The notes under the pieces: generated by a model
What the model was told of the DNA's origin: nothing
Database searches by the model: none
What the model saw: the letters and a program-made list of their open reading frames with translations, nothing else
Program-made: the position numbers and the translations under genes
Assembly: GCF_057098645.1 (NCBI RefSeq)
Contig: NZ_CM169472.1
Reading direction: 5' to 3' (one strand)
Length of the DNA stretch: 64,000 nucleotides
Shown: piece by piece, positions 33,199 through 47,339 of the stretch
How positions within the stretch are numbered: the first letter of the stretch is position 1
Layout of the letters: each line of letters opens with the position of its first letter

Positions 33199-33864
33199 TT
33201 AATGCAGGCAGCACTGCTTAAATTTCTTACCACTACCGCACGGGCAAGGATCGTTACGCCCCGGTTTCTCTTCTGCTTTGATCGGTTGCTGAACAGCTTT
33301 TTCCTGCGGATGCGCCATCCAGTACGCATGTAGATCAAGCGCCGCCAGTCGAATGGCATCTACGCTCTCTTCAAACGCTTCTGGCGACATCTTCTCTACC
33401 CGCTCGAAGTTTTCCTCAGTACCGTGCAGCGCAATCGCCTCCAGCGCTGGTTTTAACGAATCGGGCAATGTTGACCAGTCAGAAAGTGCCACGCCCCGCA
33501 TATAGCCAAAGCACCACTCCTCAACAATCGTCAGCTCGCTGCCATCAACTTCTCGCAAGCCGAATAACGGCTCAAACTGCTCCGGGAATTCGTTCAGACG
33601 CTCTGCGGTATCGGCCATATGTTGAAAAGCCAGGTTCATAAAGCGCGTCATCTCTTTCTCTGACGCCCAGCGCGGCACATAGTCAGCCCCACCCCACACG
33701 GCAACCAGCCACTGTGCCGGTTCAATCTCTTGCGGAGAACTCAACACCGCCGTCAATAAACCGTCCAGCTCCGCCACATCAAGGATGGCGTGGTCAGTGT
33801 TGTATTTGGTCAGAATATCGTCCAGCCATTCCAACTCACTTTCGTTTAACGGTCCCGTTTTCAT
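33199..33864 (-). CDS. yecA: UPF0149 family protein YecA (C-terminal SEC-C motif)
   Basis: 221-aa ORF ending ...[20 protein letters not shown]. Confidence 0.9.
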
Positions 33865-34462: not shown

Positions 34463-36334
34463 TTACAGCGTAAATTCGTTTCCGGGTCCAGTGCCCAGGT
34501 TATTTACTATATAAGCATCTATTCTCTGATCATTAAATCGCCAGCAGTCAATGGCAAGATCCATCAGCAGGCGTTGCCTTGATGTGATGCTTTCCGCAGA
34601 CCAGTCTTGATATTCATATCCATATTTCAGCTTAAAGCGATTTAATGCAGTGTTATCACCAATTGAGTACTGGGAGTGGAGTAATCGAGTCATGATGATT
34701 TCAGAGTTTAAATATTCTGTTTGTTTTTTCAAAAACCAGTCTTCACTCAAATCATTGCAGTTATTGACAGACTGGTTAATTGTACCCTCTAATAATGTTA
34801 CATTACCAAGTTTGTAGAGATAACTTGTTCGATTTACATCAGAGAACTCCCCGTTTTCAGGGGCGTTTCGTACCGTCTGAGGAAGAATATGCTCAATTTG
34901 CATCTGCTGAATAGCCTGCTGGCTCTTTTCCGGAAAACCGCAAAGATGGCGGATATGATTCTCTAATCTACCCAATACATAACGTTGGCGATACTGAGGC
35001 GTAAAATTATAGTCATTAATAATTGAGAATCGTTCTTTAAATTCATCTAAACGCTCCACAACAAAAGGTATAAGTGTTGCTGAAACAACATTTGCAACCT
35101 CTGCTTTCGTTTTCACATCCCGAAGCTTTACAGCCCATTGAGTAAAGCGTTGCTCATATGTCTTCGATTGAATAGCCATTGTATTTGTAAAGAATAAAAA
35201 GCTCTCAAGTTGAGCACCTAAGAAATCCATTACATCATCTGAACAACTAATATCCAATGCCATTAGTAAAACCAAATGCTGACGTGAGCGATATTTATTA
35301 ATATATCCAATGTTACTTACGTTTGGAAAACGGATATTTTCACGCCAGTAGGCTGCTTCATTTGTTGCATTGACCAGGTTAGCGTATCGTTCTGATAATT
35401 TTTCCAATTCTTTGACGAGGACCATAGGGCGTGTCTTATACTGCAACGACAGTTCCCCCTCAGCTGAAATGATCCATTTATATATATCATCTTCACGCAA
35501 AATCCCGTGATGATATCGTGCCATCAGAAAGTAACGTAAAAAACGAAGCGGGTTATCACTTTCGCCGCAAGACTCAAGGTTATTAGTGATGGATTTCCAT
35601 GTTGTCTTTATTGCCGAAAACTGTTCTTCTTTTATCTGACTGAAAATCAAATTTTTAACAAGATCCATAGCATTAAGGCTGGCACCACGCTGATTGATCG
35701 TTTCGAAGATCTTTAATGCGCTACTTAAGTTCTCTGATTCAATGACAACCAGCTCAACTTTTGTTAAAAAAAAGCGAGCGAAGGAGATTAATCCATTCAA
35801 GCTATCTTGCAATTGGTATTTAAGATAATCACGAATGTGATCATACGCGTCAGCCATTTTTTTTACTGAAGCTGTTTCCGCAAAGGTATTGGTTTGCCCT
35901 TCAATTAACCGCGAAATAAATCCTCGACTTTCTTCATATTGAAGATCTAGTCTAATTAGATTTTCCTCACTATTAATATCATAACTAGAGAGCCATTCCT
36001 CAATAGTTTTCAGATATTCCAGCCCTTTTTTGTCAAGTGTATCCAATCTATCTTTTAATAGATCCCGTAAGGCACACATAGTGATGACAATAGTGGTCAA
36101 CCGCTGCTGTCCGTCAATAACATCATGCTTTTCCCCATTCTTTACGATAATAACAGAACCGAGAAAATAACCATTTTGATCTTTCTGCTCTGGTTGGTAT
36201 TCATTGTCTAAATCCATGAGAAACTGTTCAACCTGATCATCAACCTTCCATACATACTCACGTTGATAATCGGGAACTAAAAAATAATAATCGCTTAATT
36301 TTGATATATTTTTTACATCGGCTTCTATTTTCAT
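34463..36334 (-). CDS. GmrSD-family type IV restriction endonuclease-like protein (DUF262 N-terminal, DUF1524 C-terminal)
   Basis: 623-aa ORF; N-terminal DGQQR motif typical of DUF262; C-terminal EHILPQ ... N-rich motif typical of DUF1524 His-Me finger. Confidence 0.65.
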   Translation of the reverse strand: MKIEADVKNISKLSDYYFLVPDYQREYVWKVDDQVEQFLMDLDNEYQPEQKDQNGYFLGSVIIVKNGEKHDVIDGQQRLTTIVITMCALRDLLKDRLDTLDKKGLEYLKTIEEWLSSYDINSEENLIRLDLQYEESRGFISRLIEGQTNTFAETASVKKMADAYDHIRDYLKYQLQDSLNGLISFARFFLTKVELVVIESENLSSALKIFETINQRGASLNAMDLVKNLIFSQIKEEQFSAIKTTWKSITNNLESCGESDNPLRFLRYFLMARYHHGILREDDIYKWIISAEGELSLQYKTRPMVLVKELEKLSERYANLVNATNEAAYWRENIRFPNVSNIGYINKYRSRQHLVLLMALDISCSDDVMDFLGAQLESFLFFTNTMAIQSKTYEQRFTQWAVKLRDVKTKAEVANVVSATLIPFVVERLDEFKERFSIINDYNFTPQYRQRYVLGRLENHIRHLCGFPEKSQQAIQQMQIEHILPQTVRNAPENGEFSDVNRTSYLYKLGNVTLLEGTINQSVNNCNDLSEDWFLKKQTEYLNSEIIMTRLLHSQYSIGDNTALNRFKLKYGYEYQDWSAESITSRQRLLMDLAIDCWRFNDQRIDAYIVNNLGTGPGNEFTL

Positions 36335-36391
36335 TTTATATCCTTACATAGCTGGATGAACACCATAGATCATACTGATCCCAGATCCAAT

Positions 36392-36901
36392 TCACAAACG
36401 AACAGGAGAGTAGACCCCTTCTACATTACAGCTATCTCCGTCATCAAAAATCAACTCTCCTGCACTATAACCATCCATGGATAAAATAGCCTTTTCATTG
36501 AGAGCCAGACTAAGGCACATTGATGTTTTTATCATATTATCTGTACCATAAATCTCATACCAGTTATCTTCTTTTTTAGAAACCTCTACCTCATACTTTC
36601 CTGAGTCAATATTAACCATGCTAAATACATTATCTACATCACATGAATCCTTGCTATCTGTAAAAATTATTTTTTTATCATAGCCATCAACCCTGAGATA
36701 TGCGTCTTCAGAATAAGCATAAACATAACAATATTTAGTATTAACAAAAGAATCCTTCCCAGTAATTTGATATAAATTACTATCTTTTCTTGTGACATTT
36801 ATTTCCCACGTATTGGCATGAACATAACCTGGAGCCAAAAACAGGGTTAATAAGAACGGTCCAATCTTGGCTTTAAAGTTTCTAACAATTTTGAAAAACA
36901 T
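36392..36901 (-). CDS. secreted protein of unknown function with two tandem Cys-containing repeat domains
   Basis: 169-aa ORF; signal peptide MFFKIVRNFKAKIGPFLLTLFLAPGYVHA; internal repeat NLYQITGKDS...CDVDNVFSMV / NWYEIYGTDN...CNVEGVYSPV. Confidence 0.55.
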   Translation of the reverse strand: MFFKIVRNFKAKIGPFLLTLFLAPGYVHANTWEINVTRKDSNLYQITGKDSFVNTKYCYVYAYSEDAYLRVDGYDKKIIFTDSKDSCDVDNVFSMVNIDSGKYEVEVSKKEDNWYEIYGTDNMIKTSMCLSLALNEKAILSMDGYSAGELIFDDGDSCNVEGVYSPVRL

Positions 36902-36952: not shown

Positions 36953-37708
36953 CTACATATCAGCCAACAACATCCCAGCCATGCCATCCAGCCGTTTCTT
37001 GACCTTTTCCCACCCAGGCATAACCTGCCCCATCAGGCGGTAAAACTCTTCACTGTGGTTGTGCTCAGCAACATGGCATAACTCATGTAGCAAAACATAA
37101 TCGATACATTCTGAGGATGCCTTAACCAGCCATGGATTCAGGGTCAGACAGCCTTTTGCTGAACAGTTGCCCCATTGCGTTTGCATCGCCCGCAGACGTA
37201 TCGGAGGACGCTCACTGACCCAAAGGGTCTGCGGAATCAGTAAATCAAGCCTGCGCTGAAAAACATCTCTGGCACGTTCCCGATACCATTCAGCCAGCAA
37301 GGCTTTAATCTTTTCTGCCGATTTGTGTCTGACAGTCACTTCCAGACGCCCACGCAACATTTTCACTCGTTGCGGCACAGTAGCGTCTTCTGTCACTTTC
37401 AACTGATATTGCTTACCGAGATAATAATGGCTTTCTCCGCTGACATACTGACGCGGAACAATGTGTGTCTGTTGCTCCCTGAAATCACGCAGTTGCTGGT
37501 ATATCCAGCGCCCACGTTTTTTCAGCGCAGACAATACCTCGTGCTCCGGTGTTTCAGGCGGTACAGAGGCCACAACCCGGCAGTCCGGATAAACCTTGAT
37601 GAGCACCCTGCCCTTTACGACCTGACGCGGAACACACTGTACGACGATGACCTCATCACCATAGACAATGCGTAACGCTTTCATTGATGGCGATTCTTTT
37701 TCACTCAT
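36953..37708 (-). CDS. DUF45/YgjP-like zinc metallohydrolase
   Basis: 251-aa ORF with HELCHVAEHNHSEEF (HExxH...NHS); 4-nt overlap with hsdR stop. Confidence 0.6.
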   Translation of the reverse strand: MSEKESPSMKALRIVYGDEVIVVQCVPRQVVKGRVLIKVYPDCRVVASVPPETPEHEVLSALKKRGRWIYQQLRDFREQQTHIVPRQYVSGESHYYLGKQYQLKVTEDATVPQRVKMLRGRLEVTVRHKSAEKIKALLAEWYRERARDVFQRRLDLLIPQTLWVSERPPIRLRAMQTQWGNCSAKGCLTLNPWLVKASSECIDYVLLHELCHVAEHNHSEEFYRLMGQVMPGWEKVKKRLDGMAGMLLADM

Positions 37709-40700
37709 GATTTCATCAAACCAACGCGCAGTATCTGGATGATGGTTTCCACAATACGGTTAACCTGATTCATTCCGGCACCAATTTCCCGGCAGGCCGT
37801 AAACAGCAGTGGTAGCAGACTTGTCTTAACGACTTTCTCAATGTCCTGGGGGTTCAGGGAGTTTTCTGCCACCGCTTTGACGATAATGTTGTCCACGTCA
37901 AAAGCCAGCTTCGTCCACTTATCCTGCACTTGAACGTCTTTTACCACAAAAACCTCAGGTAGCTCTTTTTTAAATACACCGTAATATGCCTGAGCATGCT
38001 TGTTTACCGCCAAAGCATCCGGGATATCACTGAGCTTACGGGCTTTAACCTGTTCTTCAAACTCACGGAATAAGAGGTACTGCTTAAGTGGATGGTCGAA
38101 CAGTTTTTCAGCCTCTTCGATTGCCATACGCAGGAGTCTGGAAAAGGCCTCCTGAGCATACGGATCATCACGCAGCTCCTGCTCAATCATCTTCGTCACA
38201 CGGGTTTTAATGATGTCGGTTTCATTGCGGGTTTTATTGTTATCCCACTCTTCGGGTTTTTCGCTCTTGCCCATTTTACCGACTTCATACACGCCATCCG
38301 GTTCACGAACCTCAACGCCGGTAACATGCTTATCCAGCAATTTTTTCACCTGCTCAGCGTAGTCGTCATAATTGACCTGCTCTCCACTTACCTGCATCGC
38401 CCACTGGCGAAGGCTGGACATCTGTTTTACGGTTTCTTTATAGAGATTTCGGTCTTGTTCCGTAAAGCTCTTGTCGGTGAAGAAGGTAGCGGACTGCAGT
38501 GCCACTTTCAGGCATCCGGCAAAGGCCGTTAACGCCTCGAAGAAATCATCACGGGTTTTCTGATGGATATCGACCATCTCTCCGTCACGTTCTTCCATTT
38601 TAGGCACCAGTACTGCACGTAACTGCTCAGTATCATTTTTGTTTTTAACACCGGCAAATATGGCCCACAACTGGTTATACAGATGCGGCAGACGTTTATA
38701 TTCAGAGCTCATGGCGCTGTACAGCCCGTCAATATCCTTGATGTCGTATCCTCCCTGGGTTCGGGAGGCGAGATCCTGATATTTGCCGATAGTCGTGTCC
38801 AGTTCAGCCAGAATGCCGCGATAATCAATCAGCAGGCCAAACTTTTTCAGTGGATGCAGACGGTTTACCCTTGCAATCGCCTGGATAAGGTTGTGGGACT
38901 TAAGCGGCTTGTCGATATACAGCACGGTATTCTTCGGTTCATCAAATCCGGTGAGCAGTTTATCAACGACGATCAGTAATTTGAGCTTATCATCAGTATC
39001 GAAACGACTGATGATATTGCGGGTATACACAGACTCATCCTGCATGCCGACGTTATCTTTCCACCATTTCGTCACTTCCGGCAGTTTGCTTTCATCCACC
39101 TCAGTATTCCCTTCCCGGGTATCCGGCGGGCTGATAACTACAGCTGACTCAAACAACCCGGCTTCATCAAGATACTTTTTATATTTGATGGCGGAAATCT
39201 TGCTGTCGCAGGCAAGTTGGCCTTTCAGCCCCTCATCAATATTCTTCGAGAAGTGTGTGGCGATATCGAGTGCGATCAGCCGGATGCGGTCATCTGCACT
39301 GTAGACCTCACCTTTACGGGCATATTTACGTTTAAGGTCGGCTTTTTGCGCTTCGCTTAACCCATCGGTAATACGGTCAAACCAGGCATCTATTGCCCGA
39401 TCGTTAACCTCAAGGTCGGGAATACGTTCTTCATACAGCAAAGGTGTAACGGCTTTATCTTCTACCGCTCGCTGCATGGTATAAGCGTGGACAATCGGCC
39501 CGAATTTATTGGTGGTCTTATCTTCTTTTAGCAATGGCGTACCGGTGAATGCCACAAAGGCGGCGTTCGGCAGTGCCAGTTTCATTCGCACATGGTTCTC
39601 ACCCCCCTGGCTGCGGTGTCCTTCATCAATCAGAACGATGATGTCGGGGCTGGTATTGACGCATTCAGGCAATTTTGTCGCTGAGTTAAATTTCTGGATA
39701 AGGGTAAAGATTATACGTTCTTTACCAGAGCCAATCTGCTGTGCCAGCTTCTGACCTGAGGTCGCCATCGCTTTGGCCTTATCATCCTTCCCTGCCAGTT
39801 CGCCACCAGAGACAAAAGTGCCGCTGAGCTGCCCTTCAAGGTCCACGCGGTCCGTCACCACCACAATACGACACTGCTTCAGGCTGTCATGAAGGATCAG
39901 CGCCTTGCTGAGGAATACCATGGTGTAAGATTTACCTGACCTCGTGGTATGCCAGATCACCCCACCTTCCCTGCCCCCGTCTGGTCTGCGGGTACTGATG
40001 CGTTCCAGCAGTCTTTTTATCCCGAACACCTGCTGATAGCGGGCAACAATTTTTCCGGTTTTTTTATCAAACAGGGTGAAGAAGCGGGTCATCTCCAGCA
40101 GACGTTCCGGTGAAAGCAGACTGATGAGCAGCTTATCCTGCCCGCTGACTGCCAGTTCCCCCCCATCGATTAACTGTTGATACCATTTGAGATCGACTGA
40201 AGGACGATGATCAAACAACGCATGAATTTGTTCAGTCGATAACTGATGGTTGCGCAGCGCATACATCTGCGGATCGGTAATATCTTCTTCGCGCCATGCC
40301 GCCCAGAATTTCATTGGCGTATGGCATGTACCGTAGCGCCCGTCATGACCGTTAATCGAAAGTAATAACTGGCTGTAGACAAACAGCTGCGGGATTTCAT
40401 CGTTGAACTGGTTGCGGATACTCTGGGATATCCCCTCGTCAATGGTTGGCCCTTTCTTGCCATGACCAGCCGGGCTTTTCGCTTCAATAACAGCCAGCGG
40501 GATACCATTAACAAAGCAGACAATATCCGGTCTGCGGGTTTCAACACCGCCTGACCGCAATACCGTAAATTCTTCAGTAAAATGGAACTGGTTATTTTCC
40601 GGATGTTCCCAGTCGATCAGCGCAATGGTGGGGTTGACCTTCTTGCCATCGACAAATTCGGTGACGGCGATACCGTAGAGCAGATGGTTATACATCCGTT

Positions 40701-40989
40701 CATTGGCTTTGAGCAGCCCTTCATTCAGCGCCGGAGAACAGACCTGTGATATCAGGTTATCCAGTGCTTTTTCCGATAACTGGCAGTTTTTGCCACCCGC
40801 CATAAAGGAACGCTTCGACAGCTCTTCACGCAGAACCGGACGCAGCACCACCTCATCCTGTTTATAGCCCCGGTAATCCATAATCTGTTTCGGAGATAAA
40901 AACGTCCAGCCGAGGCTGGTCAGTAACGTCAGTGCCGGGATTTTGGCGCTGTATTCTTCCTGGAATTTAGGTTGGTAGTGCTTATCCAC
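37705..40989 (-). CDS. hsdR: type I restriction enzyme R subunit
   Basis: 1094-aa ORF; N-terminal PD-(D/E)xK-like IEAK motif, SF2 helicase motifs including DEGHRS. Confidence 0.85.
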   Translation of the reverse strand: MDKHYQPKFQEEYSAKIPALTLLTSLGWTFLSPKQIMDYRGYKQDEVVLRPVLREELSKRSFMAGGKNCQLSEKALDNLISQVCSPALNEGLLKANERMYNHLLYGIAVTEFVDGKKVNPTIALIDWEHPENNQFHFTEEFTVLRSGGVETRRPDIVCFVNGIPLAVIEAKSPAGHGKKGPTIDEGISQSIRNQFNDEIPQLFVYSQLLLSINGHDGRYGTCHTPMKFWAAWREEDITDPQMYALRNHQLSTEQIHALFDHRPSVDLKWYQQLIDGGELAVSGQDKLLISLLSPERLLEMTRFFTLFDKKTGKIVARYQQVFGIKRLLERISTRRPDGGREGGVIWHTTRSGKSYTMVFLSKALILHDSLKQCRIVVVTDRVDLEGQLSGTFVSGGELAGKDDKAKAMATSGQKLAQQIGSGKERIIFTLIQKFNSATKLPECVNTSPDIIVLIDEGHRSQGGENHVRMKLALPNAAFVAFTGTPLLKEDKTTNKFGPIVHAYTMQRAVEDKAVTPLLYEERIPDLEVNDRAIDAWFDRITDGLSEAQKADLKRKYARKGEVYSADDRIRLIALDIATHFSKNIDEGLKGQLACDSKISAIKYKKYLDEAGLFESAVVISPPDTREGNTEVDESKLPEVTKWWKDNVGMQDESVYTRNIISRFDTDDKLKLLIVVDKLLTGFDEPKNTVLYIDKPLKSHNLIQAIARVNRLHPLKKFGLLIDYRGILAELDTTIGKYQDLASRTQGGYDIKDIDGLYSAMSSEYKRLPHLYNQLWAIFAGVKNKNDTEQLRAVLVPKMEERDGEMVDIHQKTRDDFFEALTAFAGCLKVALQSATFFTDKSFTEQDRNLYKETVKQMSSLRQWAMQVSGEQVNYDDYAEQVKKLLDKHVTGVEVREPDGVYEVGKMGKSEKPEEWDNNKTRNETDIIKTRVTKMIEQELRDDPYAQEAFSRLLRMAIEEAEKLFDHPLKQYLLFREFEEQVKARKLSDIPDALAVNKHAQAYYGVFKKELPEVFVVKDVQVQDKWTKLAFDVDNIIVKAVAENSLNPQDIEKVVKTSLLPLLFTACREIGAGMNQVNRIVETIIQILRVGLMKS

Positions 40990-41058: not shown

Positions 41059-42843
41059 TTATGATGAAAAGAACGGCGAGTCCCGATAAAGGCGATTGTA
41101 CTTGACCTGTTCTGTTTCGCCCTTGTTTACATTACCAAATTTCTCCTGATGCGTCGTACAGCAGGAACCACAGGATGCACAAATAAATCGTCCTTCTGAA
41201 CATTTTTCATGCAAATCCCTGGCGTCAATTATTTCGCTGCATTTGTAACCAATACAGTGATTAATGTAATGCCCGATACCAAACTGTTCGCACGAATGAC
41301 TGGCACATTTAAAGACGGTCAGGCGATACGCGGCCTGGAAAGGTTTTTTCACAAATCCTTTCGACTTTGTATCCCAGACGCTGACTTCCACACGAGCATA
41401 TTTCATATCTGGAACCATCAGCACCCCACAACTTCGGCAATGCAAGCGGGAATGTAATTCTCTGATACGATTGAAATACCCAGCCAGTTTAATTGGGAAA
41501 TCCCGCTTAGAAGGTTCGCCTGCAATCAGATAGGTCATGCCATAGTGGGCAAGCCAGTCATAAATAGTGAAGTCGATGTAATCCCGACTGAGGTCGGGTA
41601 GTACCTGCGGATCATGGCAGATTTTCGAACGACAAAGGAATTTTTTCTCTATCGTTCCGTCAGGTTGTTTTGCATTCCAGTGAAATGCCTCACAGGATAA
41701 TTTTAAATTCCGGGAACGAATTTTCAATGAGCTACACTGTGGGAACAATTTGAAAACAGAAGGATGGCTTACCGGGATTTTACCCGACAACACTCCCTGC
41801 CATATCTCATGCAGAATAATACTCAGAACGGACTGTTCATCGTTACGCCCAATCAGCGGTAACAATTTACTCAGAATAAAGTATTCAGGGTCAGAAGAAA
41901 TTTCAGTATTCGACTCAATATCATTAACAAAACTGAAATCTTTCCTGAACATCTTCTGTTTAATCAAATACTTATTGACAAAAGGACTAATCACGGAATG
42001 TTTATAAAATTGCTCTCTCGATGAGAATTTCTGCTGATAGGCATCACGGACAAATGGTTGTATATCCATTTTATTTTTCGTGAAACTACGTCGAACAAAA
42101 TTCTCTATATCATCATGCCGATGTTCAAGAATCCGCTCGCTGCTTATACAATCGTAAAATGCCAGGTAGAGAATAGCACTTATAGATATATGGCTGAGTA
42201 ATTCATTGATGATGTCCGATGTTGAAGCCCCCTGGCAATCCGTAGCCGCAGAACACCTTTTCACCCAAACAGCGAACTGATCAATGTTATTATCGATAAA
42301 TGACGAAGGCATGACTGCAGGAGATATTTGTTGTGCGGTCAAATCATCAAAATTCTTATCAGAGGCGAAAAGTGCAAACTGGTTATCGTAGTTACGTGAT
42401 TTTAAAAATAGCGGCAAGACTTTTGTAGCAGCTATATCACTGGTAACTAACCGAATTATAGCCCTTTCGCCAAAGGACTGAGTGAGAAAATTAATAACGC
42501 AGTCACGATAACGCCAACGAGCGAAATCAACGCCCTCCTCAATAATAGCCCGGAGATATTCAATAAGGAGCTCAGCCGTCTCCTCATCTGTTTTATCAAG
42601 AATGTGAACATTAAAAGCCGTAGGCTTACCATTTTTACCTGTACCTTCCCTGAACAGCACCGGTGCATTGTCTGCGGGTGTATAGTTCCGGCTTATCTCA
42701 TTCTTATGAAAAAACAGCTCATTACCATTCTCTGATAAGAGAAAGCCAAAGTTATTCTCCCGATCCGTTTTGCTGTTGTAGCCTCCGAACCAGAGAACAT
42801 TTCCCATGTACCACCGGGAACGATCCAGATTGTTCACTGCCAT
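41059..42843 (-). CDS. protein of unknown function: N-terminal cold-shock-like domain, C-terminal Cys/His-rich putative zinc-ribbon region
   Basis: Start chosen at MAVNNLDR with RBS GAAGGGGG 7 nt upstream (594 aa); WFGGYNSKTDRENNFGFL resembles the CSD KWFN..KGFGFI core; C-terminal clusters CRSCG, CASHSC, CASCGSCC. Confidence 0.55.
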   Translation of the reverse strand: MAVNNLDRSRWYMGNVLWFGGYNSKTDRENNFGFLLSENGNELFFHKNEISRNYTPADNAPVLFREGTGKNGKPTAFNVHILDKTDEETAELLIEYLRAIIEEGVDFARWRYRDCVINFLTQSFGERAIIRLVTSDIAATKVLPLFLKSRNYDNQFALFASDKNFDDLTAQQISPAVMPSSFIDNNIDQFAVWVKRCSAATDCQGASTSDIINELLSHISISAILYLAFYDCISSERILEHRHDDIENFVRRSFTKNKMDIQPFVRDAYQQKFSSREQFYKHSVISPFVNKYLIKQKMFRKDFSFVNDIESNTEISSDPEYFILSKLLPLIGRNDEQSVLSIILHEIWQGVLSGKIPVSHPSVFKLFPQCSSLKIRSRNLKLSCEAFHWNAKQPDGTIEKKFLCRSKICHDPQVLPDLSRDYIDFTIYDWLAHYGMTYLIAGEPSKRDFPIKLAGYFNRIRELHSRLHCRSCGVLMVPDMKYARVEVSVWDTKSKGFVKKPFQAAYRLTVFKCASHSCEQFGIGHYINHCIGYKCSEIIDARDLHEKCSEGRFICASCGSCCTTHQEKFGNVNKGETEQVKYNRLYRDSPFFSS

Positions 42844-42865
42844 GAGCAAGCCCCCTTCCGCTTTG

Positions 42866-43549
42866 TCAGTGCAGGCAGCACTTTTTAAATTTTTTACCAC
42901 TGCCACACTGACACGGGTCATTACGACCGGGCAGTTTTTCTGCCCCCTTCACGGGAACAGGCCGGGATGATGCCTCTGACATTCTCACCGACAACCAGTG
43001 CTGGTAAAGCGCCAGTGCCGCAGGCTGAATGAGAGTAATACTCTGTTCAAATTGAACAGGTGACATTTTCTCAACCACTGGGAAGTTCTTTTCAATACCA
43101 TGAAGGGCTATCGCCTCCAGCGAGGGACGTAAGGCCTCTGGCAAGGCTGACCAGTCATCCAGAGACCGGCCTTTCATATACCCGAAACACCACTCTTCGA
43201 CGATGGTATATGTCTTCCCCTTCACCTCACGTCCATTGAAAATCGGTTCAAACTGTTCAGGGGCCTCATACAGGCAGCCAGCGATATCGTTCATATGCTG
43301 AAAACACAGCCCCACAAAACGCGTCATCTCTTTTTCAGTGGTCCAGCGAGGGTGGTAATCACCTCGCCCCCAGATAGCACTGAGCCAGGTATTAGGGGAA
43401 ATCGTATTCGGGCCAGAGACAATCGCCGTCAGAAAGCCATCCAGCTCAGAGAAACAGAGCACAGAGTCATCATTGCCGTATTTCATCAACACCTCTTCCA
43501 GCCAGTCGATTTCCCGGTCAATCAGCGGCCCGCTTTTCGTCAGTTTCAT
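42866..43549 (-). CDS. YecA-like UPF0149 protein with SEC-C motif (paralogue of chromosomal yecA)
   Basis: 227-aa ORF colinear with YecA at roughly 60 percent identity by eye, ends [24 protein letters not shown] overlap with hsdS stop; stop 22 nt before next gene. Confidence 0.7.
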   Translation of the reverse strand: MKLTKSGPLIDREIDWLEEVLMKYGNDDSVLCFSELDGFLTAIVSGPNTISPNTWLSAIWGRGDYHPRWTTEKEMTRFVGLCFQHMNDIAGCLYEAPEQFEPIFNGREVKGKTYTIVEEWCFGYMKGRSLDDWSALPEALRPSLEAIALHGIEKNFPVVEKMSPVQFEQSITLIQPAALALYQHWLSVRMSEASSRPVPVKGAEKLPGRNDPCQCGSGKKFKKCCLH

Positions 43550-44188
43550 TCGGCAACCGCCTCATCGACCTTAACACGACGTTTGCCAGTCAGTAGCTGT
43601 TGCATCAGGGCTTTTTTCTCGTCTTTCAGGCAGGCGAGTTTTTTCTCCAGCGTGGAGATTTCAGCGTCGGCAGCGGAAAGGACGGCGGCGATTTTTTGTT
43701 GTTCTTTGATATCTAATGGCAACCTAAAGTCTTTCTCTTTAAGTTCTCGCATATGTCTGCTGTAACCTAAATTCGGAATATCTGTATTTGAAAGAAGATA
43801 GTATCCAAGTTTTGGTTCAAGTATTTTGCTAGTTTTTATTACTTGCGTTCCATCAGCACCGGGACAAAACACAAACTCAATCCATTTGACGCATCTTGTA
43901 TGATCGCCAAAAACAATCACAGGCACGTCCGAATAAACCTCTAAATTATTACAGTACCCAGCAATTCGACTTTGCCCTTGATCGATTATAGGGATGGAAC
44001 CTGACTGTAAATAATCGGAAGATTTGACTTGCGCCGATTTTTTATTTGCAACAATGAAAGCATTATCAAACGTTAAATATACCCACTCCCCATTAAACCT
44101 CCCCCCATTCTCATCCAGCAAGCGTTTTTGTCCGGTAAGCAATTGCTGCATCAGGGCTTTTTTCTGTTGCTGGCTGTTGGTGAGAAGC

Positions 44189-45245
44189 GGCTTTGTTGAA
44201 TAAATCAGATTTCGGGTAAGTCTCCCCCGTAGCGGGTTGTGTTTTCAGGCAATACGCACGCTTTCAGGCATACCTGCTTTCGTCATTTTGTTCAGCGCTC
44301 GTACCAGGGCCATAGCCTCCGCAACCTGACCATCGTAGTCACGCAGCGTCAGTGAACCCCCGAACAGCTGTTTTACCCGGTACATCGCCGTTTCCGCTAT
44401 CGAGCGACGGTTGTAATCTGTTGTCCATTTCCACCGCGCATTACTCCCGGTCATTCGCTGATTAGCCACTGCACGGTTACGGTCTGCATATTCACCGGGC
44501 CAGTAGCCCGCACCTTTTCGGGGAGGGATAAGCGCGCTGATTTTCTTACGCCGCAGTTCATCGTGACATAGCCGGGTATCGTAAGCGCCATCGGCGGCGG
44601 CTGACCTGATTTTCCGGTGGGTTTGCCGGATTAACCCGGGGAAGGCCTCTGAGTCCGTAACGTTGTTCAGCGACAGGTCTGCACAGATGATTTCATGTGT
44701 TTTACTGTCAACGGCGAGATGCAGCTTACGCCAGATACGGCGGCGTTCCTGGCCATGCTTTTTGACTTTCCACTCGCCTTCACCGAAGACCTTCAGCCCG
44801 GTGGAATCAATCACCAGATGTGCGATTTCACCCCGGGTGGGCGTTTTGAAACTGACATTAACCGACTTTGCCCGCCTGCTGACACAGCTGTAATCCGGGC
44901 AGCGTAGCGGAACGTTCATCAGAGAAAAAATGGAATCAATAAAGCCCTGCGCAGCGCGCAGGGTCAGCCTGAATACGCGTTTAATGACCAGCACAGTCGT
45001 GATGGCAAGGTCAGAATAGCGCTGAGGTCTGCCTCGTGAAGAAGGTGTTGCTGACTCATACCAGGCCTGAATAGCTTCATCATCCAGCCAGAAAGTTATG
45101 GAGCCACGGTTGATGAGGGCTTTATTGTAGGTGGGCCAGTTGGTGATTTTGAACTTTTGCTTTGCCACGGAACGGTCTGCGTTGTCGGGAAGATGCGTGA
45201 TCTGATCCTTCAACTCAGCAAAAGTTCGATTTATTCAACAAAGCC
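44189..45245 (-). mobile_element. IS903-like element (IS5 family), copy 1, 1057 bp
   Basis: Terminal inverted repeats GGCTTTGTTGAATAAATC; 9-bp target duplication GTGAGAAGC at 44180-44188 and 45246-45254. Confidence 0.9.
44245..45213 (-). CDS. IS903-like transposase
   Basis: 322-aa ORF; recognised by eye as IS903/IS102-type transposase. Confidence 0.85.
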   Translation of the reverse strand: MKDQITHLPDNADRSVAKQKFKITNWPTYNKALINRGSITFWLDDEAIQAWYESATPSSRGRPQRYSDLAITTVLVIKRVFRLTLRAAQGFIDSIFSLMNVPLRCPDYSCVSRRAKSVNVSFKTPTRGEIAHLVIDSTGLKVFGEGEWKVKKHGQERRRIWRKLHLAVDSKTHEIICADLSLNNVTDSEAFPGLIRQTHRKIRSAAADGAYDTRLCHDELRRKKISALIPPRKGAGYWPGEYADRNRAVANQRMTGSNARWKWTTDYNRRSIAETAMYRVKQLFGGSLTLRDYDGQVAEAMALVRALNKMTKAGMPESVRIA

Positions 45246-45815
45246 GTGAGAAGCTTTTCCGTCACCGAAATCGCCTCATCCCAGGTTGACAGAATTTTAA
45301 CGATTCTCTTTTGTTCAGACAGTGGGGGGATATTAAATGGCCACTTAAACCAACTATCTAACTTAAAAATCATTTTCTCTATGTGCACACCAATGCTAGA
45401 GTGGAAGCAGGTTTGCTGGAAATATAGAGACTCCGATAGAAATTCCATATAAGGAAGATAAAAACCGGACTTCCCTGTAAGCACACAATATTCATTCGAT
45501 ACAATTGAGCCAGAAAGTTCTTTAGGTACAAGACCGCAAGCACCGTGCACAATTTGTCGTTTTGATATGAGAAAGTCGCCTTCTTTAATATAGAATTGAC
45601 TTTTTACGGAGATATCTTTTCCTTTAAGATGCTCACGTCTTATTACGCCACCTCTGGAGCGCTTTACTGTAACTAAGTCATACTCTTGATTATCTTGTAT
45701 ATATGCCTTTCTTGCCTCTATATTTAAGCACTTTTCTAATGATAACTTTTGCCATCCTGTAGGTAGCATTCCAAGGATCGGTTTTCCAGCTTTAACGCTC
45801 ACTGGGTAAAGCGAA

Positions 45816-47339
45816 TCACGAGCCATAACCCAACTCCTTCAAATACCCTGCCATCTCAACTTCCAGCTTCGCCAGTTCCACCTTCAGTTGCTCACGCTCT
45901 GCTCGCACCGCCACCAGGTCAATCTCATCCTCTTCTTCAAAGGTATCGACATAGCGCGGAATATTGAGGTTGTAATCGTTGTCCTGAATTTCCTTCAGGC
46001 TGGCAAGATAGGCGTATTTCTCGACGTTATCGCCATCACGGTAGGTCTTGACGATTTTCTTAATGTTTTCTTCGCTAAGCTGGTTCTGGTTTTTACCTGC
46101 CTTGAATTCACGGCTGGCATCGATAAACAGCACCTTGTCATCAACTTTCTACTTTTTGAAAATCAGAATCGCAGCCGGAATCCCCGTACCGTAGAACAGT
46201 TTTTCCGGCAGACCAATTACCGCATCCAGCAAATTTTCGTCGATCAGTTTCTGGCGAATTTTACCTTCGCTGGAGCCACGGAAAAGCACACCGTGTGGCA
46301 CAACTACGCCCATACGGCCAGTTCCCGGTTTCAGGGTTTCGATCATATGCGAGATAAAAGCGTAATCTCCTTTAGTCTTCGGCGGTACACCGCGACGAAA
46401 ACGGCCAAACTTATCGTTCTCGGCCTCGTCATGGCCCCACTTATCGAGGCTGAACGGTGGGTTAGCGGTCACGATATCAAACAGCATCAGGTCGCCATTT
46501 TTATCGAGCAGCTTCGGGTTACGAATGGTATCGCCCCACTCGATTTTATGGTTGTCTTCCCCGTGCAGGAACATATTCATTTTCGCCAGCGACCACGTAG
46601 AACCGATCGCTTCCTGACCGAACAAGGCATAGTTACGACTATCATGCCCGGAGACAATTTTACGCCCACACTTCATCAATAATGAACCGGAACCACAGGC
46701 TGGATCGCAGATGGTATCACCCGGTTGCGGATCGAGCAGTTCTGCAATCAGGTCCGAAACTTCCGGCGGGGTATAGAACTCCCCGGCTTTCTGCCCACCG
46801 CTGGCGGCAAAGTTTTTGATCAGGTATTCGTAAGCATTGCCGATAACGTCCAGCGTACCGACACGACTCGGCTTCAGGTTGAGATCTTCACCGGCGAAGT
46901 CTTCCAGTAGCTGACGCAGTATGGTGTTTTTCTGTTTTTCTTCGCCAAGACGATCGGTGTTAAACGAAATATCCTGGAACACGCTTTTCCCGGCATCTTT
47001 CAGTTTGGTTCCGTTGGCTTCTTCGATTGCATGCAGAGCCTGATCGATACGCTCACCGTTACCCAGCTCATGGCGGCGTTCGTACAGCGCATAAAAGCTG
47101 GCACTTTTTGGCAGTACAAAACGCTCGTTGGCCATCATCGCTTCAATCAGTTCCGGCGCATCGCCATACTGTTCTTTGTATTCGTCATAGTGATCCTGCC
47201 AGACATCTGAAATGTACTTGAGGAACAGCATGGTAAGGATAAAGTCTTTATAGGTATCAGCACTGATGGTGCCACGGAACGTATCACACGCGGCCCACAG
47301 GGCTTTGTTGATCGTGTCCTGACTGATTTTGTCGTTCAT
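45816..47339 (-). pseudogene. hsdM: type I R-M methyltransferase HsdM with in-frame amber codon at 46149-46151
   Basis: 396-codon ORF with N6-adenine MTase motifs (DPACGSG, NPPF) stops at ...AAILIFKK TAG, then continues in frame KVDDKVLFIDAS... for 105 more codons; overlaps hsdS start. Confidence 0.8.

What the first reader, a model, noticed from the sequence alone, without database searches (positions are those of the whole stretch)
36953..37708. DUF45 metallohydrolase translationally coupled to hsdR
The HELCHxxxxNHSxxF motif identifies a YgjP/DUF45-type zinc hydrolase. Its start overlaps the hsdR stop by 4 nt, implying co-expression with the restriction subunit and a possible role in controlling HsdR or in a linked abortive response.
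Basis: partly seen in the sequence, partly recalled or inferred. Interest (0 to 1): 0.4.

Follow-up and report, generated by a model that had tools for sequence, protein, structure and literature searches.

The report
Zinc peptidase gene fused onto hsdR
A small zinc-hydrolase gene overlaps the end of a Type I restriction-enzyme gene; the pairing is real, conserved across bacterial phyla and already annotated and published, but what the enzyme does is still unknown.

Summary
ORF 36953..37708 (-), 251 aa, is a full-length YgjP-like/DUF45 protein (Pfam PF01863, E 3e-58). It carries HELCHVAEHNH, with H208, E209, H212 and H218 invariant in 72 homologues. Its ATG overlaps the TGA of hsdR (37705..40989) as ATGA.

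The adjacency is not chance:
- Of 80 DUF45-anchored loci from different species, 70 have the same HsdR clade directly upstream, mostly with -4 or -1 overlaps.
- Of 74 assessable HsdR-anchored loci, 66 have DUF45 directly downstream. Only the most distant HsdRs lack it.
- DUF45 tracks HsdR in sequence divergence more closely than HsdM does (r 0.85 against 0.62).

The genes between hsdS and hsdR vary from locus to locus and are defence-type cargo. DUF45 is the constant last gene.

The protein is already in RefSeq as "M48 family metallopeptidase", and a 2025 paper shows the same layout in EPEC without testing the gene. Its function is therefore inferred only. My best guess is a protease dedicated to HsdR or to its DNA-bound complex.

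In this window the system is dead: hsdM has an amber codon and hsdS is split by an IS element.

The parts
36953..37708 (-). DUF45/YgjP-like zinc metallohydrolase gene, 251 aa. It has an N-terminal family-specific basic domain (about aa 10-160) and a C-terminal minigluzincin-like catalytic domain (about aa 165-248).
37055..37087 (-). Zinc-binding and catalytic motif HELCHVAEHNH (H208, E209, H212, H218)
   Evidence: These four residues are invariant in the 72-sequence alignment A1, where they are numbered H207/E208/H211/H217. H218 aligns with the His of proabylysin's 'YHSSSF'.
37705..37708 (-). ATGA overlap between the hsdR stop codon (TGA) and the DUF45 start codon (ATG)
   Evidence: Read directly from the sequence. 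Overlaps of -4 or -1 recur in 41 of 70 loci and in 32 of 66 loci under a longest-ORF rule.
37705..40989 (-). hsdR, Type I restriction subunit, 1094 aa, intact
   Evidence: TIGR00348 455 bits; Pfam HSDR_N, SWI2_SNF2, T1R_D3; PADLOC REase_I PDLC03041 1365 bits. Only distantly related to EcoR124I HsdR (E 1e-31, motor domain only).
41059..42921 (-). Cargo gene in the hsdS|hsdR slot: a 620-aa protein with a weak cold-shock domain. RefSeq uses a shorter start, giving 594 aa.
   Evidence: Pfam CSD E 1e-4, below the curated cut-off. Annotated 'cold shock domain-containing protein'. No PADLOC, NCBIfam or PHROGs hit.
42866..43549 (-). Cargo gene in the hsdS|hsdR slot: a YecA-like UPF0149 + SEC-C protein, a paralogue of chromosomal yecA (33199-33864)
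   Evidence: Pfam UPF0149 and SEC-C. PADLOC candidate system PDC-S12, E 8.5e-98.
43546..45826 (-). hsdS, split into 43546-44188 and 45246-45826 by an insertion sequence
   Evidence: Methylase_S hits on both halves. Colinear with intact hsdS of L001 apart from the insertion.
44189..45245 (-). 1057-bp IS5-family (IS903/IS102-like) element with a 9-bp target duplication, GTGAGAAGC
   Evidence: Terminal inverted repeats GGCTTTGTTGAATAAATC and the duplicated target. DDE_Tnp_1 transposase 44245-45213.
45816..47339 (-). hsdM with a premature amber codon (CAG to TAG at codon 397, window 46149-46151)
   Evidence: Gap-free alignment to the intact 507-aa hsdM of L001. Pfam N6_Mtase and HsdM_N.
34463..36901 (-). 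Downstream island genes that are not conserved partners of DUF45: a 169-aa protein (36392-36901) and a DUF262/GmrSD-like nuclease (34463-36334)
   Evidence: GmrSD_N and GmrSD_C; PADLOC HEC-06. No gene family recurs downstream of DUF45 across 134 loci.

Best explanation
The ORF encodes a cytoplasmic zinc metallopeptidase-type enzyme that is the conserved fourth and last gene of a widespread Type I restriction-modification family. The gene order is hsdM-hsdS-[variable cargo]-hsdR-DUF45.

Shown here:
- It is a PF01863 protein with an intact HExxHx5H site.
- Its start codon overlaps the hsdR stop codon.
- The hsdR-to-DUF45 junction is conserved across phyla.
- Within this HsdR clade DUF45 is essentially always present.
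- DUF45 co-diversifies with HsdR.
- It is uniformly basic, whereas HsdR is acidic.

Inferred:
- It is made together with HsdR by termination-reinitiation.
- It works on or with HsdR. Most likely it is a protease that acts on HsdR or on DNA-bound, stalled or translocating restriction complexes. This would be a built-in counterpart of the ClpXP-mediated restriction alleviation known for Type IA and IB enzymes, and it would let a horizontally mobile system establish itself and avoid self-restriction in any host.

In this window the mechanism cannot operate, because hsdM (amber codon) and hsdS (IS insertion) are inactivated.
For: - Identity and active site.
- Junction.
- Forward adjacency: 70 of 80 species-level loci spanning Proteobacteria, Bacteroidota, Chloroflexota, Planctomycetota, Actinomycetota, Cyanobacteria and others.
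- Reverse adjacency: 66 of 74 assessable HsdR-anchored loci. Every assessable HsdR scoring at least 494 bits on the clade HMM has DUF45. The 8 without it are the most distant (426-465 bits) and are followed by unrelated genes.
- E. coli: 560 genomes carry DUF45 and 560 carry the hsdR+DUF45 unit.
- Constant against variable parts: 42 of 52 loci carry 0.4-5.4 kb of diverse defence-type cargo between hsdS and hsdR (SMODS, patatin, KwaB, Pycsar-like, Schlafen, Fic and others). No gene family recurs after DUF45 (E. coli variants; DarTG2 in EPEC, PMC12255303).
- Co-diversification: pairwise-identity correlation is 0.85 for DUF45-HsdR, 0.62 for DUF45-HsdM and 0.71 for HsdR-HsdM; Mantel test 0 of 999 permutations.
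- Charge: all 72 homologues have pI 9.0-11.3 with median net charge +16, against a median pI of 5.9 for HsdR.
- Precedent that HsdR proteolysis is how Type IA/IB restriction is controlled: review PMC12707154. The EcoKI locus has no DUF45.
Against: - No experiment on any family member's role in restriction was found. The one paper showing this architecture did not test the gene.
- Conserved linkage and a mirror-tree correlation can arise from shared inheritance alone.
- Peptidase activity is itself inferred from fold and motif. From memory, the only biochemical annotation in the family (E. coli YgjP) is a weak UTP pyrophosphatase activity.
- WLM and SprT Pfam hits fall below their curated cut-offs.
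- No interaction model could be computed.
- Making a protease against HsdR one-for-one with HsdR needs an extra layer of control that is not visible in the sequence.
- A DUF45-M78-HTH fusion hints instead at regulatory proteolysis of a repressor.
Confidence: 0.35

Rival explanations
1. Guard or abortive-infection effector. DUF45 is a latent protease, like Lit, or like PrrC in logic. It is switched on when a phage disables the restriction complex, for example with Ocr or Stp-type inhibitors, and then cleaves a host or phage target to stop the infection.
For: - Type I loci do carry such effectors. PrrC in EcoprrI and accessory toxin genes are discussed in PMC12707154.
- This RM family is a frequent carrier of abortive-type modules.
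- The catalytic residues are strictly conserved, so the enzyme is active.
Against: - Known and candidate add-on effectors sit in the variable hsdS|hsdR slot and differ from locus to locus. DUF45 is constant, sits after hsdR and co-diversifies with it.
- PADLOC has no model that matches it.
- In this window M and S are dead while DUF45 is intact and identical to that of strains with intact systems. That fits poorly with a toxin held in check by the assembled complex. This is a single case, however, and a sister O145 strain has IS3 inside DUF45.
Confidence: 0.17
2. Anti-anti-restriction factor. The basic protease removes acidic DNA-mimic inhibitors such as Ocr and ArdA, or other proteins that block the enzyme, and so keeps the restriction complex working.
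For: - Homologues are uniformly high in positive charge.
- The gene is tightly coupled to the restriction subunit.
- Relatives such as SPRTN and Wss1 are activated by DNA, and DNA mimics could exploit this (the mechanism is from general knowledge).
Against: There is no direct evidence. The basic charge is explained equally well by DNA binding or by binding to acidic HsdR. No such activity is reported in the papers searched.
Confidence: 0.13
3. Not a protease. DUF45 is a small-molecule hydrolase, for example a nucleotide pyrophosphatase as annotated for E. coli YgjP, that adjusts nucleotide or cofactor pools around the ATP- and SAM-dependent enzyme.
For: - It belongs to the same Pfam family as YgjP.
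Against: - It shares only 25% identity over 60 aa with YgjP, which lacks the 160-aa N-terminal domain.
Confidence: 0.1
4. The gene is a passenger that merely travels with hsdR and has no role in restriction.
For: Defence islands accumulate unrelated genes. The function is untested.
Against: - The same junction, usually with overlapping stop and start codons, is kept at 31-64% protein identity across many phyla.
- It is kept in 66 of 74 HsdR-anchored loci, while everything else around it changes.
Confidence: 0.05

Closest known systems
[quoted passage not shown]
   Same: Same architecture: hsdM-hsdS-[embedded cargo]-hsdR-metallopeptidase. The authors' neighbourhood analysis also shows the peptidase travelling with hsdR.
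   Different: The cargo here is a YecA-like protein plus a CSD protein rather than DarTG2. No RptR-like regulator lies upstream of hsdM. I could not retrieve the EPEC protein sequence, so the sequence relationship was not measured. The paper did not test the peptidase.
Minigluzincins (proabylysin 4jiu, projannalysin 4jix, selecase 4qhf)
   Different: Minigluzincins are stand-alone archaeal proteins of about 105-110 aa. This protein adds a 160-aa basic N-terminal domain with no solved counterpart and is tied to hsdR. No conserved autoinhibitory C-terminal tail is seen in the alignment.
SPRTN / Wss1 (SprT-like, WLM) DNA-dependent proteases
   Different: The Pfam scores are below the curated cut-offs (WLM 25.6 against 26; SprT-like 23.5 against 25.6). 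DNA dependence is untested. There are no ubiquitin- or SUMO-binding modules.
ClpXP-dependent restriction alleviation of Type IA/IB enzymes (EcoKI, EcoAI)
   Same: The proposed logic is the same: proteolysis of HsdR in DNA-engaged complexes to prevent self-restriction (PMC12707154).
   Different: ClpXP is a host ATP-dependent serine protease that is not encoded with the hsd genes. EcoKI has no DUF45. For DUF45 the activity is only hypothesised.
PrrC in EcoprrI, and Lit protease of e14
   Same: Both are accessory enzymes associated with restriction or exclusion. Lit is a zinc metalloprotease (from general knowledge). PrrC is embedded in a Type I locus.
   Different: PrrC sits between hsdS and hsdR, in the variable slot, and is a tRNA nuclease. 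DUF45 sits after hsdR and is constant across the clade.
E. coli K-12 YgjP (b3085)
   Same: Same Pfam family and the same HExxHx5H core.
   Different: YgjP is 167 aa against 251 aa here. The two share 25% identity over only 60 aa. YgjP is not next to any hsd gene; it lies between rlmG and ygjQ.

Membership tests
Pfam PF01863 YgjP-like / DUF45 | Whole-protein score above the gathering threshold with near full-length profile coverage | tested here: met
   197.6 bits against a cut-off of 26; profile positions 3-205 of 207
Pfam PF01863 YgjP-like / DUF45 | Intact HExxH plus a downstream His metal site | tested here: met
   H208, E209, H212 and H218 are invariant in 72 homologues
MEROPS/Pfam Peptidase_M48 (Ste24/HtpX/BepA), the name RefSeq gives it | Match to the Peptidase_M48 profile | tested here: not met
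   Pfam-A at E<=0.01 returns only PF01863, WLM and SprT-like, with no Peptidase_M48 hit
MEROPS/Pfam Peptidase_M48 (Ste24/HtpX/BepA), the name RefSeq gives it | Closest structural relatives are M48 enzymes | tested here: not met
Minigluzincins | Fold of the roughly 100-aa catalytic domain | tested here: met
Minigluzincins | Minimal single-domain protein of about 105-110 aa | tested here: not met
   The protein is 251 aa, with an extra confidently folded N-terminal domain
SprT-like / WLM DNA-protein-crosslink proteases | Profile score above the curated cut-off | tested here: not met
   WLM 25.6 bits against 26; SprT-like 23.5 against 25.6
SprT-like / WLM DNA-protein-crosslink proteases | DNA-dependent proteolysis | not testable with these tools
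   The only indirect hint is that the protein is basic (pI 9.4; family 9.0-11.3)
Orthologue of E. coli YgjP | Full-length similarity and shared genomic context | tested here: not met
   25% identity over 60 aa; different length and different neighbours
Conserved hsdR-DUF45 gene pair (Type I RM clade with a fourth gene) | DUF45 directly downstream of an HsdR of the same clade, on the same strand, overlapping or within 30 nt | tested here: met
   The window has an ATGA overlap. 66 of 70 linked loci are overlapping or within 30 nt. 66 of 74 HsdR-anchored loci have the pair.
Functional Type I RM system (R2M2S) | Intact hsdM, hsdS and hsdR | tested here: not met
   hsdM has an amber codon at position 397 and hsdS is split by a 1057-bp IS; hsdR is intact
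RRDM-type island (PMC12255303) | rptR regulator upstream and darTG2 between hsdS and hsdR | tested here: not met
   No small HTH ORF upstream of hsdM and none annotated in L001 or L002. The cargo is YecA-like plus CSD.
RM-embedded abortive effectors (PrrC-like) | Located in the hsdS|hsdR slot; variable between related loci | tested here: not met
   DUF45 lies after hsdR and is constant. The slot holds other, variable genes.

The most novel reading that the evidence does not exclude
DUF45 is a dedicated protease that senses DNA or the translocation state and degrades its own HsdR, or clears stalled R2M2S complexes from DNA. This large Type I family would then have a self-contained, host-independent restriction-alleviation mechanism, in effect a true fourth subunit. 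That would explain why the family moves so freely between phyla and can carry toxic cargo.
Probability: 0.3. Interest if true: 0.7.

Novelty: already known. Interest (0 to 1): 0.33.

Why it matters
Type I restriction enzymes are textbook three-gene systems. Here a fourth gene is practically obligatory in one widespread clade. In E. coli about 10% of complete genomes carry it, and it also occurs in many other phyla. No function has been assigned to it.

If the gene controls HsdR by proteolysis, it would add a built-in safety mechanism to the ClpXP paradigm. That could explain how these islands establish in naive hosts. It would also matter for engineering strains and for predicting barriers to gene transfer.

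For this particular window the finding is ordinary. The gene is annotated, the architecture is published, and the surrounding system is decayed.

Tried and rejected
Literature. Full-text searches for DUF45, YgjP, COG1451 and PF01863 together with Type I restriction found nothing relevant. The 'DUF45' hits were DUF450. Makarova 2011, Titheradge 2001 and Chin 2004 are not held, so I could not verify my recollection that COG1451 was already noted in defence-island surveys, and I could not place the HsdR in the classical ID or IE families.

Family libraries. NCBIfam and PADLOC have no model for the protein. PHROGs gives only a weak hit to an unknown family.

RptR regulator. No RptR-like gene lies upstream of hsdM.

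Downstream partner. No gene family recurs after DUF45.

Promoter and terminator scan. Uninformative: 20 promoter-like sites against 23.5 expected in shuffles.

HsdR-DUF45 complex.

Full report
**Observation**

The window is E. coli chromosome. The 4-kb stretch containing hsdR and the ORF is 100% identical to O145 strains such as RM11626-C1. On the minus strand, ORF 36953..37708 encodes 251 aa.

- Pfam-A assigns it to PF01863 (YgjP-like, formerly DUF45). E is 3.1e-58, and the match covers profile positions 3-205 of 207. WLM and SprT-like give only sub-threshold hits.
- The motif reads HELCHVAEHNHSEEF. In full-protein numbering it is H208, E209, H212 and H218, at 37055-37087. The alignment and model numbering is one lower, because I left out Met1.
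- The minus-strand junction is AAA-TCA-TGA-GTG. The ATG (37708-37706) and the hsdR TGA (37707-37705) form ATGA.
- The upstream ORF 37705..40989 is a full-length HsdR (TIGR00348, HSDR_N, SWI2_SNF2, T1R_D3).

**Local context**

The genes lie in an island between yecA and the leuZ-cysT-glyW tRNA cluster. In strains with an intact copy (L001, L002) the order is hsdM-hsdS-YecA-like-CSD protein-hsdR-'M48 family metallopeptidase' (WP_001290574.1)-hypothetical-DUF262.

The window aligns to L001 without gaps, with two differences:
- A 1057-bp IS903/IS102-type element with a 9-bp target duplication splits hsdS.
- hsdM carries CAG to TAG at codon 397.

HsdR has 7 substitutions and DUF45 has none. Whatever the pair does, it cannot act through an assembled R2M2S enzyme in this strain. 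A sister O145 strain has in addition an IS3 inside the DUF45 gene, so the locus is decaying.

**Is the adjacency conserved?**

I tested both directions.

(i) Anchored on DUF45. An alignment of 72 diverse homologues (A1) was used to scan one genome per GTDB species. The best 80 loci have 31-64% identity and come from many phyla.
- 70 have a homologue of the window's HsdR directly upstream on the same strand.
- 3 are cut by a contig end.
- 7 sit in unrelated contexts.
- Under a longest-ORF rule, 26 junctions overlap by 4 nt and 15 by 1 nt. Another 16 have longer apparent overlaps, and several of these have an alternative -1 start. Nine have gaps of 0-30 nt and four have larger gaps, two of them with a small ORF in between.

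(ii) Anchored on HsdR. An alignment of 41 HsdRs (A2) was used to scan IMG/VR.
- Of 74 loci with room downstream, 66 have DUF45 immediately after hsdR. Of these, 27 overlap by 4 nt and 5 by 1 nt.
- The 8 without it are exactly the HsdRs most distant from the clade HMM (426-465 bits). They are followed by unrelated genes: GIY-YIG/DUF4357, GmrSD, PC4, DUF2513/Mrr and M78.

In E. coli, 560 of 5426 complete genomes carry the DUF45 gene, and the same number carry the hsdR+DUF45 unit. EcoKI has no such gene.

**Constant and variable parts**

- In 42 of 52 loci, 0.4-5.4 kb lie between hsdS and hsdR.
- The 106 ORFs there include SMODS and DncV-like cyclases, patatin, SLATT, guanylate cyclase with PycTM, KwaB, Schlafen/AlbA_2, RhuM, DUF3800, AAA_21, Fic, kinases and SEC-C proteins.
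- E. coli variants carry YecA-like alone, or DUF2188-nucleotidyltransferase-SLATT. EPEC carries DarTG2 (PMC12255303).
- By contrast, no gene family recurs after DUF45 in 134 loci.
- Pairwise identities of DUF45 and HsdR correlate at r = 0.85 over 61 loci (Mantel 0 of 999). The figures are 0.62 for DUF45-HsdM and 0.71 for HsdR-HsdM.

DUF45 therefore behaves like a core component attached to R, not like slot cargo.

**The protein**

- The family is large: 22,122 clusters at 50% identity with E<1e-3, and 388 with E<1e-30.
- AlphaFold2 with A1 gives pLDDT 95.6.
- All 72 homologues are basic (pI 9.0-11.3, median net charge +16). In the query the charge is concentrated in the N-terminal part. The partner HsdRs are acidic (median pI 5.9).
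- The protein is not an orthologue of E. coli YgjP: 25% identity over 60 aa, and 167 aa against 251 aa.
- RefSeq's label 'M48' is not supported by Pfam.

**What is known**

No paper in the searchable library links DUF45, YgjP, COG1451 or PF01863 to Type I systems.

The closest published description is the EPEC RRDM island: RptR-HsdM-HsdS-DarT-DarG-HsdR-'M48-family metallopeptidase'. The whole island protects against phages, and the peptidase is shown as a conserved neighbour. Its role was not tested.

A 2025 review recounts that Type IA and IB restriction is alleviated by ClpXP degrading HsdR in DNA-engaged complexes. Type IC uses assembly failure instead. The review also notes that accessory genes such as prrC sense inhibition of the enzyme.

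ArdC, a plasmid antirestriction protein with a metalloprotease domain, does not need that activity, so it is no precedent.

**Mechanism**

The following are shown:
- An intact zinc site.
- Stop-start overlap with hsdR.
- Clade-wide, bidirectional linkage.
- Co-diversification with HsdR.
- Basic charge.
- Peptidase-type fold.

From these I infer that the enzyme is co-translated with HsdR and acts on or with it. My preferred reading (confidence about 0.35) is a dedicated protease for HsdR or for stalled DNA-bound complexes, that is, built-in restriction alleviation or turnover.

The rivals are:
- A Lit/PrrC-like guard effector (0.17).
- A protease against DNA-mimic inhibitors (0.13).
- A non-proteolytic hydrolase (0.10).
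- A mere passenger (0.05).

The constant position after hsdR, set against the variable cargo slot, argues against the guard model. So does the intact DUF45 beside dead hsdM and hsdS, but only weakly.

A fusion of DUF45 with an ImmA/IrrE-type M78 domain and a weak HTH, seen in three related viral contigs, is unexplained. It could point to regulatory proteolysis.

**Verdict**

The object itself is already annotated and its architecture is published, so novelty is low. The open question of what this fourth gene does is real and easily testable.

Interest is 0.33.

Noticed in passing
window 43546-47339: The methylase half of the Type I system is broken twice. hsdM has an amber codon at position 397 (46149-46151), and hsdS is split by a 1057-bp IS903/IS102-like element (44189-45245, 9-bp duplication GTGAGAAGC). 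hsdR and DUF45 remain intact.
   Followed up: yes
window 41059-43549; loci L003-L082: The gap between hsdS and hsdR is a cargo slot. It is filled in 42 of 52 loci with varied defence-type genes (CBASS-like, Pycsar-like, KwaB, Schlafen, RhuM, Fic, kinases). In the window it holds a YecA-like protein (PADLOC candidate PDC-S12) and a 620-aa protein with a weak cold-shock domain and no other family match.
   Followed up: partly
window 33199-33864 and 42866-43549: There are two yecA paralogues 9 kb apart: the chromosomal yecA at the island border, and a diverged UPF0149/SEC-C copy inside the restriction operon. By eye they are clearly homologous along their whole length. The identity was not computed.
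   Followed up: no
L119 9018-11573, L122, L124 (IMG/VR contigs): In three related viral contigs the DUF45 ORF after hsdR is 851 aa. It has a YgjP-like domain, then a Peptidase_M78 (ImmA/IrrE) domain and a weak HTH_3 hit. This natural fusion might bear on function.
   Followed up: partly
window 36392-36901: A 169-aa ORF lies between DUF45 and the GmrSD-like gene. It has a hydrophobic, signal-peptide-like N-terminus and two similar halves (…NLYQITGKD…SCDVDNVF / …NWYEIYGTD…SCNVEGVY). It has no family assignment apart from weak Leptospira-family hits.
   Followed up: no
window 34463-36334: A DUF262/GmrSD-type (Type IV-like) nuclease gene lies at the island end and matches PADLOC HEC-06. A GmrSD gene also follows hsdR directly in one DUF45-less locus (L160).
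   Followed up: no
L053 8510-8890; L078 8553-8906: In two Bacteroidota loci a small ORF of 117-126 aa sits between hsdR and DUF45. It was not identified.
   Followed up: no
NZ_CP028379.1 (hit H76): In O145 strain RM9872, which is otherwise 100% identical to the window over hsdR-DUF45, an IS3-family element interrupts the DUF45 gene. This is further decay of an already inactive locus.
   Followed up: no
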